From Fimbriosthenelais zetlandica (lineage: Eukaryota): DNA of 64,000 bases. The stretch lies in the NCBI GenBank assembly GCA_977030845.1, contig OZ365109.1, positions 52,700,001-52,764,000 of the forward strand, in the 5' to 3' direction. Position numbers: made by a program. Shown here in pieces: positions 51,384 through 60,300 of this stretch (the first letter of the stretch is position 1; each line of letters starts with the position of its first letter).

Positions 51384-54300
51384 ATAGTGTAGAACAACGA
51401 GCACAAAATCTAAAACCCCATTTTCCCCATAAAGGGGAAATGGGATTAATTTACAACCTCAAGCATCAAGGCCGCCATGTTGAATTAAGACAGGATCATA
51501 TAGCCTAGGCCTACCGGTACATGAAATAGGAATAGATAAAAATTAAGATGTATATCTACCCGCATACATGGCGTCAGAGGCTAGAAAACTCCTGAATATT
51601 CGATAAAAGGGGCGAAAACCCTCTTTCCATAGAGTTAGCATATAGCGAGTGTTTCAGGACTATCAAGCTCACGCAGGAGCTGACATTAATTAGGCCTACA
51701 GCTCAATTAGGTCAAAATTCAACATTACAATAGATTAAAAAGTGTATCTATAATCATGCATAGAATTTGGGATATTACAATGGCTAAATATTTTATAAAT
51801 GATGCCTGAAGACTGCTATCGTTGAATTAGGACTGACTAAATGGTGTAGGCCTATAGCGTACCGTATTACAAAGAGTGTTTTGTGAGAGAAAGTACACTT
51901 AAATTGACTCAACATATGAAATAGGAATAGATAAAATGTATATCTACCCAGATACATGGTGTATGGGGCCAGGCAACTCCTGAATATTCGATAAAAGGGG
52001 CGAAACCCCTCTTTCCATAGAGTTAGCACTGAGTGTTAGTTCACGCTTCTGCCGCGGGTGGCGTCGTAGAACGGGGCGCTATCAGCTCACTCGGGAGCCA
52101 TTTCTGACATTAATTACAGTTCAATTAGGTCCAAATTCAACATGACAATAAATTAAAAGTGTATCTACAATTATATATAGAATTTAGGATATTACAATGG
52201 CTAAATATTTTTAAAATGATGCCTGAAGTTTGCTCTCGTTGAATTAGCACTGACCAAATGGTGTATATTACAAAGAGTGTTTTTTGAGAGAAAATACACT
52301 TCAATTGATTCAAAATACGAAATAGGAATGGATAAAATGTATATCTACCCAGATACATGGTGTATGAGGCCTGATAACTCCTGAATATTCGATAAACGGG
52401 GCGAAACCCCTCTTTCCATAGAGTTAGCACTGAGCGTTAGTTCACGCTTCTGCCGCGGGTGGCGTCGTAGTACGGGGCGCTATCAGCTCGCTCAGGACCC
52501 ATTTCTGACATTAATTAGAGTTCAATTAGGTCCAAATCCAACATGACAATAGATTAAAAGTGTATCTACAATTATACATAGAATTTGGGATATTGCAATG
52601 GCTAAATATTTTATAAATGATGCCGGAAGTTTGCTTTCGATGAATTAGCACTGACGAAATGGTGCATATTACAAAGAGTGTTTTCTGAGAGAAAATCCAC
52701 TTCAATGGAGTCAAAATACGAAATAGGAATAGATAGAATGTATATCTTCCCAGATACATGGTGTATTGGGCCAGGCAACTCCTGAATATTCGATAAAAAG
52801 GGGCCAAAACGCTTTTTCCATAGAGTTAGCACTGGGCATTAGTTCACGCTTCTGTCGCGGGTGGCGTCCTAGTACGGGGCACTATCAGCTCACTCAGGAG
52901 CCATTTCTGACATTAATTACAGTTCAATTAGGTCAAAATTCAACATTACAATGAATTAAAAGTGTATTTACCATCATACAGAGGATTTGGGATATAAAAA
53001 TGGCTAAATACTTTATAAATGATGCCTGAAATTTGCTCTCGTTGAATTAGCACTGACTCGATCTGTGTAAATTACAAAGTGTTTTGTGAGAGAGTTTTGT
53101 GAATACACTTTCAAATATATGAGTGAGGTAGACGGAGTATCTGTCCCGGTGAGGAGGGAGGACGAGGCTTGTTTACAGGCTATGAGTGAGGCAGATGGGT
53201 ACCAGATCAACAAAAGCGAGAGTGGAGAGTGCTTGGAGGGTCTACACGAGTGCGAACCACTACGACATTTAGTTTGCTCCTTTGTTGATGGTGGCGCATT
53301 GGTAGCGGGGCCCGGCAGTATTTCCAGCACCAGTCTGAGACCTGTATACATGTACAGTTCTATATACACTGTAGATCTATAAATTTAACATTAAAGCATA
53401 TGCCATGGGATAAATAGGCCAATGAATAGGCCTAGGCCTATTTTATCTAGGGGAACGACAATTATAATTGCAGGTGGTGGAATTGTTTGAATAAGGCCTA
53501 GGCTAATTTTGTGGGCAATAGGCCCTATGGATGAAATACAGTGAATATGATTGCCAAATATATTCATCAGATAGTAGAGTGAATACTAGTGAGTAGTCCA
53601 GTGAATACTTTTGTAGAGCCTAAGTAGAGCCTAAGTGCACAGGTGCTAGAATCTAAGTGCACAGGTGCTAGAGATTGATTTAAAAAAGAAAACATCTTCC
53701 TCTTTCTGACCTAAATTGCTGAGAACAAAATGATTGCGCATTATACATGTACGTAGCTTTTCCGGGCGTAAACTTAAACAGAAGCTTTTCTGCCTTAATT
53801 ACTTCTTTATTTTAAACAAAAAATGGGCTACATTTACTAGCCGACACATTTACAAACAGTTTTAACATTAGGTTATTAATTAATCATATTATAGTTAGTC
53901 TATGTTCTCGCATCTAATTAGAAAAGCCTATAGATGGACCTAGTCCTCTAGAACTAATTTCCAGCTCCTTATTGTATGGTGGGTATGTTTCCGTACTCAG
54001 CAGACGGTGAAGACGTTGTCGGTATAGGGTCATAATGACATTCGGCGATTTCATTATTGTTGTCATCGTCTGCACCATATTTTGGATGCAGCCTCGATTC
54101 AGGATCATTGGGAGTAAGAAAGCCATGTTCATCAATGTATTTTTGTCCAAGAGATTGAGTACTGCGTCTCTGACACAATTCATTGAGTCGCTCAGTAGAA
54201 TGGGCGCTTAATGGCACCTTTGGGTATAAAAAGAAGTCTTTTGGTGCCCTCTCTATTTCCAGTGCTTTTTTGTAGCCCTCAGCTAGGGTTTGTAAGAAGA

Positions 54301-57300: not shown

Positions 57301-60300
57301 ATAATGTTCAATCTATATAGACAGTCATATTGGACAGGCATATCGGGCTCTGTATTAGGCCTATCCTATTATTAATTTAGAAATAATGTTAAATGTATAG
57401 TATAACATTTTACGCGGTGGTTAGCGTACTATATTATTGGTGCTCAACTCACCTCGACATTCTTCACCAGGGATACCGCCTGGACATAGACATTGGTGTC
57501 CGGGGCCGTAATTCATACACACCCGTTTGCGACTGCATAATACATCATTGCACGGGTCTTCACCAAAAACACATTAAGTATATATACATAGGGAACATTA
57601 CGTCATTTAGAAATCTTCCTGTGAGGTAATTATCATGGCATCATCTCATGTAATATCGATGGAGCGATATAATTATATCGGTAGGATGATTTAAATAGGC
57701 CTAGGTCTAAAATTAGGCCTACATTTGGGCGCTATTAAAAATTAATTTTCCGATATAATTAAAAGAAAGTAAATTAGGCCTATATAATAATTATATGATA
57801 GCCGCCTGCTTAGCTTACCTGATGTTATATAGGAACACAAATCATCCAAAAGTCTCGGGGTTTTGTCTTTTAGTCTGCTGCGATCATTAACCGTATATAC
57901 ATGTCTTTTGTTAAAGTCAGTGCTGATGGTGCGTAGATAGCCGGTGTTAATCTGACCATAAGGGATACCTACACCTAAAATTAATTAAACTTGTAACAAT
58001 TAATTTCACGTAAAATAATTACATACACATGTACCGGTATAGAAAAATACCAACGGGGAATTGTTTTTAGATTCTGTGAAATATAATTATATCTGCCAAG
58101 CCCTATTATGAAAGTTTTGGTAGATATGCAATTTGATACTGTAATACGTTATAGGCCTACCAATAGAAAAAATGTATAATAATCACCTATGATAAAGACA
58201 AAGATGCCAGACTTAATGGCACGGTTCGCCTCAAGCGCAAGTAATTCAGTATTAGAGGAGGATCCTCCACTGATCAAAATGATCAATGCTCTTTTTCTGA
58301 AAATATAATATGTACTCGTTTAGGTGACTCAAGTCTTGTCTTCGAAACATTTTTTACTAAGAATTGAAAATTCTCTACTAATAATTCATAAAGTACTAAA
58401 ATACATGTATTGTAATACCCTCACCTTGTTGTGTGCAATGGTCCAAAAGCCTCAGTTCGGGCGGTCTTTAGTAAACCAGGGACATTAGTTTCACCGTCTA
58501 CTTGGACGTAGTTAATTAAATGGAGATAATTCAAAAGATTTGATTTATTGAAACCATTTTCCAGTGGAATCTCAATCGTGGCGCTGCTTCCAAAGGTTAC
58601 CAGGGAAACCCTGGCCGAGTTATTTCCTACATCTAGATGATCGGTAATGGAGAGAATTAAGCCAACGAGTGCTGGCCAATTCTTAGAAGTGCCTGCCGCT
58701 GAAACTTCGATGGCGAAAACCAAGTCCAAACTCGAATAGTCACATTCACCAGGAGCTGTAGACAATCACAAAAATGTTACATGGTATCAAAAAACTGCTC
58801 TTGAAATTACAAAGGATTTTTTTGGGGGGTTCCTGATTAGCTATATGTAAAGAACGAATCATCCGTTTAATCATATCTCACGGAATTAATTCTAATTTTG
58901 ATCATTCTAACATTCCAGTACCACAAGACACACTTACTTCCATTATCACTACAAGAAAATCTTCCCGAGGGACAGGGGCACATTTGACTGTCATTCCGAG
59001 CATTGTTACATGCGTACATGTAGGGACAGGGCCCATCAATGCAGCGTATTGCTAATATAAAAATGAAATAAAGTTATACAAATTCAAATATATAAGACTA
59101 TTTTTATAATTAATGAGTTAAAATATTTTCTTTTCCAAGATCACAAACTTCGGATTAAGATATTCATACATCTCGGGTGGATAAAAAAAATTCAGATTTA
59201 TTAATATACTTACATGTAACGTTAACCCTAGAAATAGATGACACCAATAAGATAATGATTGGAGCCACTGGAAAATATCAATTTTATTAATAGTTCGTGT
59301 ATTTAGTACATGTATAAGCTATGACTATGATATGCATGGGTTTAGGAGTTCAAAGGAGAAAACATTCATGTACTTGTGAAACTTCATAATCTCCAGAATT
59401 CTAAAAGTTCGGAGGCCTAAACATGCATGTTTCAGTTGATTTAGAATTCATGTTTCAAGTAATCACTTACCTCTCATTTTGCCTTCTCCAAATTTCCAAG
59501 GTTAGGCTATCTGGCCTGTGGGAACTGTGGGTTAGTATTGACCTACCTGAAATGAATTATAATAGTTTGCAGAAGGCAAGCTACCAGTTCCGCTCTTAAC
59601 TACTATTGATTGCTATAATACATGTACGTGTAATACCCAGTTGAGCGCCAATCCAAAAAGCGCCCAAATCTATTGCGATAGGCCCACAAATAGATTGCCC
59701 CATCAATAATTTGTAGGCTAAATCAAAATGTCCGTAGCTGTTTTAGGAATTCGACGCATATTAAGATTGGGCCTAATCAGTTATAAAAGAGAACAGGCCT
59801 ACCAGTAGGCCTAATATTAAAAACATAATTTTTATTTTATAGGGCCTATAGTGTAATCTGTTCAAAACCCTAACTAACCGCCTGATTGTTTCCTGGCCAT
59901 ATAGGGCCTACCCTAATAATTTGCTATTCCGGTTCTCGGTAGGCCTAACCTACACCAAAATAATAGGGCCTATAGAAAAAACCTTGATATTTCACTACAT
60001 TTCAAAGCACAGAATATAGGCCTAGATCATTTTTCACAATTTATTCCATGATGGAAACGTTTCTCGAAAGGAAATGTATGCAGAAATCCCTTCCCTTTTA
60101 GCGCGGGAAGGAGTAATTCCAGTTAGTGCTACTTGAGGACGCCACCAGATCGACGCCAGAAAAGTGGCAGGTGCGCGAAGCTAACCACATTCTCGCTCTT
60201 TTTCAAGGAGAAAAATCTCAATTATCAGACAAGGTGCACATAAAGCGCCCAGTGAAATATATTTTTATGGATTTACAAGGTGGAGTAATACAAATTTAAC

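What the first reader, a model, noticed from the sequence alone, without database searches (positions are those of the whole stretch)
53969..59477. Type I membrane collagen-like receptor with a matrilin-like VWA-EGF-VWA head
Seen: a signal peptide assembled from two tiny exons, EGF-like, degenerate VWA (AIEVSAAG, no DxSxS), EGF, MIDAS-intact VWA, roughly 60 Gly-X-Y triplets, three EGFs, one TM helix, and a tail of about 115 aa with Tyr motifs (HYDPI, EYGNI with YxN). Known: VWA-EGF-VWA occurs in secreted matrilins and VWA2, VWA plus collagen occurs in secreted collagens VI/XII/XXI/XXVIII, and membrane collagens XIII/XVII/XXIII/XXV are type II. I know of no described protein with this C-terminally anchored combination. 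Inference: it may be a trimeric adhesion or matrix receptor presenting integrin-I-like domains on a collagen stalk, possibly signalling-competent.
Basis: partly seen in the sequence, partly recalled or inferred. Interest (0 to 1): 0.68.

Follow-up and report, generated by a model that had tools for sequence, protein, structure and literature searches.

The report
Membrane-anchored VWA-collagen-EGF mosaic gene
An animal (not human, probably marine-invertebrate) gene strings two adhesion-type VWA domains, a collagen rod and EGF modules onto a membrane anchor at the tail end; I found no description of this combination, but exon shuffling often makes mosaics of this kind.

Summary
On the minus strand, 53969-59477 carries a 15-exon, 2859-nt open model (952 codons) with 13 GT-AG introns and 1 GC-AG intron of 95-378 nt. 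Every module is bounded by phase-1 introns. Scanned exon by exon, 6 of 13 exons pass Pfam's curated cut-offs: VWA x3 exons, Collagen, and two calcium-binding EGFs. Three give sub-threshold hits of the expected family, three give nothing (E3, E5, E6), and the last exon is a strongly hydrophobic 22-residue segment plus a 116-residue tail with no relatives.

- There are 57 Gly-X-Y triplets with one break.
- The first "EGF-like" module is supported only by its cysteine spacing.
- The last EGF is truncated, with five Cys.
- The tail's Tyr motifs do not clearly exceed chance.

My reading is a lineage-specific, exon-shuffled type I membrane protein, probably a trimeric cell-surface matrix-binding adhesin acting through the MIDAS-intact second VWA. 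Function and trimer are inferred. Ten literature searches found no such architecture. The nearest in print are the Lingula EGF-collagens, the type II MACITs and the matrilins. No eukaryote sequence or architecture database was available, and the spliced product was not assembled or searched. Interest is moderate.

The parts
59471..59477 (-). E1: inferred start-codon exon, 7 nt, phase out 1
   Evidence: ATG followed by donor AG|GTAAGT, with an in-frame stop 27 nt upstream. Inferred; there is no transcript evidence.
59214..59267 (-). E2: hydrophobic core of the signal-peptide-like N-terminus (APIIILLVSSI...)
   Evidence: Acceptor TTTTCCAG|, donor |GTAAGT, phase 1-1. No signal-peptide predictor was available.
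58938..59051 (-). E3: six-Cys module, EGF-like by cysteine spacing only
   Evidence: Cys spacing 4,5,9,1,6, which aligns with C1-C5 of the other EGF exons. No Pfam hit at E<=1 and no PDB hit at E<=10.
58425..58755 (-). E4: N-terminal half of VWA1 (degenerate MIDAS, EVSAA), one Cys near its start
   Evidence: Pfam VWA 7.5e-12, profile 1-93/174. Aligns to E8 at 2e-06. Against PDB collagen VI alpha3 the summed score is 1.2e-27, but the best single domain is only 0.006.
58187..58296 (-). E5: VWA1 middle (beta4-type ALIILISGG, Ser in place of the MIDAS Asp)
   Evidence: Local alignment to E9 is in register with IIITDG, z 3.0, reached by 20 of 2000 shuffles. No Pfam hit and no BLASTP hit.
57819..57974 (-). 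E6: presumed C-terminal part of VWA1, one Cys near its end
   Evidence: Assigned by position and phase only. No Pfam hit. Its alignment to E9 is out of register. Its only PDB hits are designed 'Bagel' repeat proteins.
57453..57557 (-). E7: EGF module between the two VWAs
   Evidence: Cys spacing 4,5,8,1,8. Pfam EGF_CA 0.025, below cut-off. Best PDB hit is the LDL receptor EGF at 0.038.
56866..57074 (-). E8: N-terminal part of VWA2, with DASTS (57022-57036)
   Evidence: Pfam VWA 2.4e-10, profile 1-58. DxSxS found. PDB: collagen VI alpha3, PTMP1, integrin alphaL I domains. No Cys.
56169..56583 (-). E9: C-terminal part of VWA2 (GGNT Thr, TDG Asp) plus a 28-residue link to the collagen
   Evidence: Pfam VWA 8.3e-15, profile 63-168. 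Best PDB hit is mussel PTMP1 at 2.5e-17, both of its VWAs, next hit 3.5e-05. Atlas nearest cluster is VWA, 0.94, commonest phylum Mollusca.
55949..56064 (-). E10: collagen, 12 Gly-X-Y triplets
   Evidence: Triplet count. Pfam Collagen 1.9e-05, 24.7 bits, just under the 27.2 cut-off.
55436..55853 (-). E11: collagen, 3 + 42 Gly-X-Y triplets with one GIARVG break; GC donor
   Evidence: Pfam Collagen 3.6e-19. Triplets. Donor AAG|GCAAGT. 16 Pro in 90 X/Y positions, 3 GPP.
55192..55299 (-). E12: EGF module
   Evidence: Six Cys, spacing 5,3,4,1,12. FXa_inhibition 6.4e-4, below cut-off. Similar to E13: z 4.2, reached by 3 of 2000 shuffles.
54848..54970 (-). E13: calcium-binding EGF
   Evidence: FXa_inhibition 6.5e-12 and EGF_CA 1.1e-06, both above cut-off. 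102 PDB matches at E<=0.01, best LRP4 at 9.8e-11.
54553..54666 (-). E14: truncated calcium-binding EGF, 5 Cys, hydroxylation-type CANTYGSYVC
   Evidence: EGF_CA 8.3e-07, above cut-off, profile 3-35/43. Cys spacing 0,7,5,8 and the motif. Best PDB hit 0.0016.
54320..54385 (-). Transmembrane segment (22 residues) within E15
   Evidence: Best 19-residue Kyte-Doolittle mean 2.67. Flanks are ...RILMRKE outside and HWLSDD inside.
53969..54447 (-). E15: 20-residue juxtamembrane stretch, TM, 116-residue tail, stop codon
   Evidence: The tail has no PDB match at E<=1, no atlas look-alike (best 0.77) and no Pfam family above chance.
53984..54034 (-). Tail motif YDPI-x9-YGNI (ITAM-like; both are also YxxPhi)
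   Evidence: reached by 693 of 20000 shuffles of the tail. A lead only.
53806..53811 (-). AATAAA, 158 nt after the stop
   Evidence: It was the only A[AT]TAAA found in the 568 nt scanned after the stop.

Best explanation
This is one real gene of a non-human animal. It was built by phase-1 exon shuffling and encodes a type I (C-terminally anchored) membrane mosaic.

Module order: signal peptide, a small Cys-rich module, VWA1 with a degenerate metal site and a Cys at each end, EGF, VWA2 with an intact MIDAS and no Cys, a roughly 49-nm collagen rod of 57 triplets, three EGF modules (two of them calcium-binding), one TM helix, and a 116-residue cytoplasmic tail with no relatives.

Inferred mechanism:
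- Three chains wind into a triple helix.
- The cell therefore displays a bouquet of three VWA-EGF-VWA heads some 55-60 nm from its surface.
- VWA2 binds an acidic residue of a matrix ligand, collagen being the best guess, through its metal ion.
- The protein thus acts as a cell-surface matrix adhesin or receptor.
- VWA2's C-terminal stretch runs straight into the first Gly-X-Y, so tension on the stalk could modulate the site as in integrin I domains.

Shown: the exon chain, the domains, the MIDAS residues and the hydrophobic segment. Inferred: the start exon, topology, trimer, ligand, and any signalling.
For: Gene model:
- 28 of 28 border motifs are unique.
- 15 exons chain in phase to 2859 nt.
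- 14 of 14 introns have GT/GC-AG ends and measure 95-378 nt, too short to hold a gene boundary.
- Exon G+C exceeds intron G+C.
- AATAAA lies 158 nt after the stop.
- 11 of 14 introns are phase 1, and every module boundary is phase 1. This is the pattern that Hynes 2012 describes for shuffled matrix genes (PMC3308698, passages).

Domains:
- 6 of 13 exons are above Pfam's curated cut-offs and 3 more are sub-threshold for the expected family.
- No second copy of any exon lies in the window.

MIDAS:
- DASTS is in E8.
- E9's Thr and Asp align with GGQT and TDG of both PTMP1 VWAs.

Ligand guess:
- E9's best solved relative, by 12 orders of magnitude, is mussel PTMP1.
- PTMP1 is reported to bind mussel and mammalian collagens (PMC4754843, abstract and passages).
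- Integrin alphaM and alphaL I domains also match.

Membrane anchor: Kyte-Doolittle mean 2.67 over 19 residues in the last exon.

Type I receptors with a MIDAS VWA exist: ANTXR1 (PMC8145208, abstract start in the listing).
Against: - There is no transcript, no orthologue and no expression evidence. None could be sought here.
- The spliced protein was never assembled, searched or folded (left out by rule). E3, E5 and E6 therefore stay unrecognised on their own, and completeness of VWA1 is inferred.
- The 7-nt start exon is a guess.
- The TM flanks run against the positive-inside habit: Arg/Lys on the outer side and Asp-Asp on the inner side.
- No trimerisation nucleus is evident. There is no Cys next to the collagen (E9-E11 have 0 Cys), and no coiled coil was tested.
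- Imino-acid content is low: 19 Pro in 114 X/Y positions.
- The tail has no family and its Tyr motifs are near chance.
- Collagen+EGF proteins of Lingula are shell-matrix components, not receptors.
Confidence: 0.5

Rival explanations
1. It is the membrane-tethered precursor of a structural matrix or biomineral collagen of the lophotrochozoan 'EGF-domain collagen' kind. The TM only holds the chain during assembly, the ectodomain is released, and it works as a matrix cross-linker through its VWAs, as PTMP1 does in byssus.
For: - Lingula shell-associated collagens form a group with EGF, EGF_CA and FXa_inhibition domains and no COLFI (PMC4595640, passages and Fig. 6 legend; PMC13425148, passages).
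- The same Pfam families hit E12-E14.
- E9's nearest solved relative is a secreted byssal matrix protein.
- The nearest atlas cluster is mollusc-rich.
- Known membrane collagens are shed (PMC4678570).
Against: - 0 RxxR furin-type sites occur in the 14 exon translations.
- A 116-residue tail is long for a mere tether.
- The Lingula text never uses 'VWA' or 'transmembrane' (0 occurrences of each). It mentions von Willebrand factor type A only for the shell-matrix proteins as a whole.
Confidence: 0.25
2. It is an engulfment or immune receptor. The collagen stalk and VWA heads capture particles or damaged matrix, as class A scavenger receptors do with their collagen domain. The tail's YDPI-x9-YGNI then acts as an ITAM, recruiting a tandem-SH2 kinase as Draper and MEGF10 do.
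For: - The ITAM-like pair is reached by only 693 of 20000 shuffles.
- Draper and MEGF10 are single-pass receptors with EGF-type ectodomains and ITAM tails (PMC8092387, passages).
Against: - 3.5% is not compelling after five patterns were tried.
- There is no NPxY and no EMI or Nimrod-type hit.
- The ITAM spacing rule used (6-12) is recalled, not taken from a call.
- The tail has no relatives.
Confidence: 0.1
3. It is a gene-model artefact. Either two neighbouring genes (a secreted VWA-collagen and a small EGF-TM gene) are read as one, or it is an unexpressed or decaying copy, or the true start is elsewhere.
For: - There is no transcript evidence.
- Phase-1 modules would chain in frame even across a false join.
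- E1 is only 7 nt.
- Intron 14 is open and in frame, so at least one border is ambiguous.
Against: - The largest gap between exons is 378 nt.
- All exons are on one strand and intact.
- 12 of 14 introns close the frame if retained.
- There is a single AATAAA after the last exon.
- No stop or frameshift occurs in 2859 nt.
Confidence: 0.1

Closest known systems
Matrilins (architecture recalled, not from a call)
   Same: A VWA-EGF-VWA head followed by an oligomerising rod. VWA1 has a Cys at each end, like clamped A domains.
   Different: Matrilins are secreted and end in an alpha-helical coiled coil. Here the oligomeriser would be a 57-triplet collagen helix, followed by EGFs, a TM and a tail. 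No matrilin chain appeared in the PDB searches.
Membrane collagens XIII/XXIII/XXV (MACITs) and COL-99
   Same: A collagen triple helix on a single-pass membrane protein.
   Different: MACITs are type II, with an N-terminal cytosolic domain, a juxtamembrane coiled coil, three or more COL domains and furin sites (PMC4678570). Here the anchor is C-terminal, there is one COL with one break, 0 RxxR sites, and VWA and EGF modules are present.
Lingula EGF-domain (shell-associated) collagens
   Same: Collagen repeats combined with EGF/EGF_CA/FXa_inhibition modules and no COLFI. They are products of lineage-specific domain shuffling.
   Different: The text of neither paper links VWA domains or a TM to these collagens. 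Their supplementary tables were closed. Orthology could not be tested.
Mussel proximal thread matrix protein 1 (PTMP1, PDB 4cn8)
   Same: The nearest solved relative of VWA2 (2.5e-17). It has two VWAs in one chain and binds collagens (PMC4754843).
   Different: PTMP1 is a small secreted byssal protein without collagen, EGF or TM.
Collagen VI and other VWA-collagens
   Same: VWA domains on a short triple helix. E4 and E8 match collagen VI alpha3 VWAs. VWA-collagens of unknown function are also noted in Hydra and choanoflagellates (PMC3308698).
   Different: They are secreted, VWAs flank both ends of the helix, and there are no EGFs or TM.
Anthrax toxin receptors ANTXR1/2 (TEM8/CMG2) and integrin alpha I domains
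   Same: A type I membrane protein presenting a MIDAS VWA to matrix ligands (ANTXR1: abstract start in the listing). Integrin alphaM and alphaL I domains match E8 and E9.
   Different: They have no collagen stalk, no EGFs, and different tails. None of their other domains was found here.
CCBE1
   Same: Calcium-binding EGF modules and collagen repeats in one chain (name and 'secreted' from the abstract starts listed; domain order recalled).
   Different: CCBE1 is secreted, its EGFs precede the collagen, and it has no VWA or TM.

Membership tests
VWA domain (Pfam PF00092) | Profile match above the curated cut-off (23.8 bits) | tested here: met
   E4 46.2 bits, E8 41.3 bits, E9 55.9 bits. E5 and E6 alone gave no hit.
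MIDAS-type VWA (integrin I-domain-like) | DxSxS plus a downstream Thr and Asp (motif recalled) | tested here: met
   VWA2 has DASTS, and its GGNT Thr and TDG Asp align with PTMP1. VWA1 does not qualify: EVSAA, and Ser at the Asp position. Metal binding itself is not testable here.
Collagens | Long uninterrupted Gly-X-Y repeats; Pfam Collagen | tested here: met
   12+3+42 triplets. E11 68.7 bits against the 27.2 cut-off; E10 24.7 bits.
Collagens | Chains form a triple helix | not testable with these tools
   Needs protein chemistry: collagenase sensitivity, CD melting, rotary shadowing.
MACIT membrane collagens | Type II orientation: N-terminal cytosolic domain and signal anchor (PMC4678570) | tested here: not met
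   The only strongly hydrophobic 19-residue window of the last exon is C-terminal to all the domains. The N-terminus is a short signal-peptide-like stretch.
MACIT membrane collagens | Furin RxxR site next to the membrane | tested here: not met
   0 RxxR in 14 exon translations. Codons split across exons were not read.
MACIT membrane collagens | Juxtamembrane coiled coil that nucleates the trimer | not tested
   No coiled-coil predictor was run.
Matrilins | VWA-EGF-VWA order | tested here: met
   E4-E6, E7, E8-E9 in that order. The E7 EGF is sub-threshold (0.025) but has the six-Cys pattern.
Matrilins | Secreted, with a C-terminal coiled-coil oligomerisation domain (recalled) | tested here: not met
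   Collagen, EGFs and a TM follow VWA2 instead.
Lingula-type EGF-domain collagens | Collagen plus EGF/EGF_CA/FXa_inhibition in one protein, no COLFI | tested here: met
   E10-E11 collagen, E12-E14 EGF-type hits, and no COLFI hit in any exon.
Lingula-type EGF-domain collagens | Orthology, and presence in the shell proteome or mantle | not testable with these tools
   No eukaryote sequence collection was available, supplements were closed, and the organism of the window is unknown.
ANTXR family | VWA followed by the family's Ig-like domain and conserved cytosolic domain (recalled) | tested here: not met
   No such Pfam hit in any exon. The tail has only a chance-level hit.
Draper/MEGF10/CED-1 | EMI plus EGF repeats outside; NPxY and ITAM inside (PMC8092387) | tested here: not met
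   No EMI hit and no NPxY. There is one ITAM-like pair, reached by 693 of 20000 shuffles.

The most novel reading that the evidence does not exclude
This is the first C-terminally anchored (type I) membrane collagen. It would be a trimeric, tension-sensitive matrix receptor in which pull on the collagen stalk opens the MIDAS site of the unclamped VWA2, as helix displacement does in integrin I domains. An ITAM-like tail would pass the signal to a Syk/Shark-type kinase. That would be an integrin-independent route from matrix to cell in a lophotrochozoan-like animal.
Probability: 0.1. Interest if true: 0.7.

Novelty: new variant of a known kind. Interest (0 to 1): 0.4.

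Why it matters
All membrane collagens in the literature I could search are type II, and they fold their helix away from an N-terminal anchor (PMC4678570; PMC10538796). A collagen anchored at the other end, carrying integrin-like VWA heads, would bear on three questions. First, it would be a new solution to how a triple helix is nucleated and registered next to a membrane. 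Second, it would show how animals without I-domain integrins might bind collagen. Third, it would show how freely phase-1 matrix modules recombine into receptors. If it is simply one of many lineage-specific shuffled matrix genes, it is a clean textbook example of phase-1 exon shuffling and little more.

Tried and rejected
Trimer model: three copies of E11 alone returned 'no answer' (score 0.12 and 0.11, mark 0.32). It counts neither way.

Single-exon folds:
- E3: mean pLDDT 51.6.
- E9: mean pLDDT 42.5. A helix was drawn at residues 124-135, but at pLDDT of about 31-34.
- Both are too poor to use, so no fold search was run.

Tail exon E15: PDB 0 hits at E<=1, atlas best 0.77, which is chance level, and Pfam only TMEM33 at 0.043.

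Other exon checks:
- E3: PDB 0 hits at E<=10.
- E5 vs E9: BLASTP found nothing. A shuffle-controlled local alignment gave only z 3.0.
- E6: aligned to E9 out of register (z 2.5). Its only PDB hits were designed 'Bagel' repeat proteins (3e-05, with no single stretch passing), which I take for a repeat-summing artefact.
- E3 vs E7 and E3 vs E13 were not above shuffles (87 and 191 of 2000).

Window-wide:
- Rfam 0 matches.
- tRNA 0 genes.
- tblastn of 13 exon translations against the window found no extra copies or hidden exons, only E4-E8, E10-E11 and E12-E13 cross-matches.
- A hydrophobic-moment scan gave nothing decisive.

Papers read in passages with nothing relevant: PMC4890752, PMC10381214, PMC6626399, PMC8382897.

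Not done:
- Homologue searches (search for homologous proteins, the search of protein representatives, metagenome and viral contigs), which were closed.

So orthologues, taxon range and the organism stay unchecked.

Full report
What is there.

Read on the minus strand, window 53969-59477 holds a chain of 15 open segments. I located each border with a short motif, and all 28 motifs occur exactly once. A per-exon script, which joined nothing, gave these results:
- exon sizes of 7 to 479 nt, summing to 2859 nt (952 codons plus stop);
- phases that chain without a stop;
- 13 GT-AG introns and one GC-AG intron (intron 11, donor AAG|GCAAGT);
- intron lengths of 95-378 nt;
- intron G+C of 0.20-0.38, against 0.35-0.59 for exons;
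- an in-frame stop 27 nt upstream of the ATG;
- a single AATAAA 158 nt after the stop.

Twelve of the 14 introns close the frame if retained. Intron 9 would shift the frame. Intron 14 (105 nt) is open and in frame, so its retention would add 35 residues but keep the anchor.

Eleven of the 14 introns are phase 1. The three that are not lie inside VWA1, VWA2 and the collagen, so every module is a 1-1 unit. This is the signature of exon shuffling that Hynes 2012 describes for matrix genes (PMC3308698, passages).

A tblastn of the 13 exon translations against the whole window found no further copy and no hidden exon.

Domains, exon by exon.

Of the 13 exons scanned:
- Six pass Pfam's curated cut-offs: E4 (VWA, profile 1-93), E8 (VWA 1-58), E9 (VWA 63-168), E11 (Collagen), E13 (FXa_inhibition and EGF_CA) and E14 (EGF_CA).
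- Three give sub-threshold hits of the expected kind: E10 (Collagen), E7 (EGF_CA) and E12 (FXa_inhibition).
- Three give nothing: E3, E5 and E6.
- E15 gives only a chance-level hit.

Evidence for the unassigned pieces is thin. E5 aligns in register with the beta4 'IIITDG' stretch of E9 (z 3.0, reached by 20 of 2000 shuffles), although BLASTP saw nothing. E6 is not recognisable on its own. E3 has an EGF-type cysteine spacing and aligns with C1-C5 of the other EGF exons, but has no Pfam or PDB match. So the second half of VWA1 and the 'EGF-like' first module rest on position, phase and cysteines.

Details that bear on mechanism.
- VWA2 has DASTS. Its Thr and Asp align with GGQT and TDG of both VWAs of mussel PTMP1.
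- VWA1 reads EVSAA, with Ser at the Asp position.
- VWA1 has one Cys near each end (in E4 and E6). VWA2, its 28-residue link and the whole collagen have none.
- The collagen has 12+3+42 = 57 triplets with one GIARVG break. That is about 49 nm at 0.286 nm per residue (a recalled figure, applied).
- The collagen has 19 Pro in 114 X/Y positions and no RGD or GxxGER motif.
- E13 is a bona fide calcium-binding EGF (LRP4 9.8e-11, 102 PDB matches).
- E14 has the hydroxylation-type CANTYGSYVC but only five Cys and no C5-C6 pair. That leaves an odd Cys near the membrane.
- E15 has a 22-residue hydrophobic segment (Kyte-Doolittle mean 2.67 over 19 residues). It is flanked by RILMRKE outside and HWLSDD inside, which is the reverse of the usual charge bias.
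- The 116-residue tail has six Tyr. Three YxxPhi motifs are reached by 1741 of 20000 shuffles, YxN by 5644, and the pair YDPI-x9-YGNI, which fits a loose ITAM pattern, by 693. None is convincing after five patterns were tried.
- The tail has no relative in the PDB or the atlas (0.77).
- No RxxR occurs in any exon translation.

Where it comes from.

The window has no N, no tRNA gene and no Rfam match. Its neighbours are as follows:
- a single-exon FEM1B homologue, full length against human FEM1B at 2.8e-214 but with substitutions throughout;
- an HRDC-bearing, RecQ-like gene in many small exons (Pfam HRDC; the rest is my reading);
- a galactose-3-O-sulfotransferase ORF;
- a P-element-type transposase.

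I do not take the contig for human. E9's best solved relative is a mussel protein by 12 orders of magnitude, and its nearest atlas cluster is mollusc-rich (0.94). Those are hints of a lophotrochozoan and no more. No tool here holds eukaryote genomes, so the organism, the orthologues and the taxon range stay unchecked.

Most likely function.

I read it as a type I membrane protein whose three chains form a collagen stalk on a short EGF pedestal. The stalk would present three VWA-EGF-VWA heads roughly 55-60 nm from the cell, and VWA2 would bind a matrix ligand through its metal site. Collagen is the best guess for the ligand, because PTMP1 binds collagens (PMC4754843, abstract and passages) and integrin I domains also match.

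VWA2 is not disulphide-clamped and runs directly into the helix, so tension could tune its affinity. That is inference by analogy with integrin I domains (recalled). The trimer, the ligand, the topology and any signalling are all inferred.

Rivals.
1. A tethered precursor of a matrix or shell collagen. Lingula shell-associated collagens combine collagen with EGF/EGF_CA/FXa_inhibition modules (PMC4595640, passages; PMC13425148, passages), and membrane collagens are commonly shed. Against this, there is no furin-type site and the tail is long.
2. An engulfment or immune receptor with an ITAM-like tail, as in Draper and MEGF10 (PMC8092387, passages). The motif evidence is weak, and there is no NPxY or EMI.
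3. A model artefact. The tight intron sizes and the intact frame make this unlikely, but only cDNA can exclude it.

Comparison with what is known.

It works like a matrilin head on a collagen oligomeriser, set on a receptor-type anchor. It is not a member of any of the following:
- Matrilins: it has no coiled coil and is not secreted.
- MACITs: they are type II, with furin sites, a coiled coil and several COL domains (PMC4678570). Orientation, furin site and COL number were tested here and not met.
- The collagen VI type: here VWAs lie on one side of the helix only.
- ANTXR or Draper families: their other domains are absent.

It does meet the stated definition of the Lingula EGF-collagen group (collagen plus EGF-type modules, no COLFI). 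Orthology cannot be tested, and those papers' text links neither VWA domains nor a TM to these collagens.

Ten full-text searches found no description of a signal peptide + VWA + collagen + EGF + C-terminal TM protein, or of any type I membrane collagen. Supplementary tables that list EGF+collagen proteins could not be opened and may hold it.

Verdict.

I rate it a new variant of known kinds (VWA-collagens, EGF-collagens, membrane collagens), produced by ordinary exon shuffling. Interest is moderate (0.4), and would rise if cDNA, conservation and a cell-surface trimer were shown.

Noticed in passing
window 46966-48927 (-): A single uninterrupted 654-codon ORF encoding a full-length FEM1B homologue. 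It has ankyrin repeats and matches human FEM1B at 2.8e-214 over residues 31-654, with substitutions throughout.
   Followed up: partly
window about 18258-42800 (-): Many small exons of a RecQ/BLM-like helicase. Pfam finds HRDC at 18258-18488. RecQ-type motifs are seen by eye at 20420-20692, 36136-36971 and 38968-39225. The 36666-36971 piece alone gave no Pfam hit at 1e-3.
   Followed up: partly
window 13772-15115 (+): A single 448-codon ORF with a galactose-3-O-sulfotransferase domain (Pfam 9.3e-36).
   Followed up: partly
window 3381-5849 (+): A P-element/THAP9-type transposase in at least two ORF pieces (TNP-like RNase H 1.3e-34, GTP-binding insertion domain, Tnp_P_element_C). It is possibly a decayed or intron-bearing copy.
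   Followed up: partly
window 51865-53093: A 401-bp tandem repeat, 3.1 copies, 89% matches. It lies about 900 nt beyond the gene's 3' end, between the gene and the FEM1B-like ORF.
   Followed up: partly
window 37520-37939: A short tandem repeat that reads open on both strands (repeated WSHDLGRASMACI-like units in one frame), inside the RecQ-like gene's intron space.
   Followed up: no
window 54448-54552 (-): Intron 14 is 105 nt, open and in frame. If retained it would insert 35 residues between the last EGF and the juxtamembrane stretch without losing the anchor.
   Followed up: partly
window 55300-55435 (-): Intron 11 uses a GC donor (AAG|GCAAGT). It is the only non-GT donor of the 14.
   Followed up: partly
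window 60544-61159: Overlapping ORFs of 136 codons (-) and 105 codons (+), upstream of the gene. The minus-strand ORF has no Pfam family at 1e-3. Nature unknown.
   Followed up: partly
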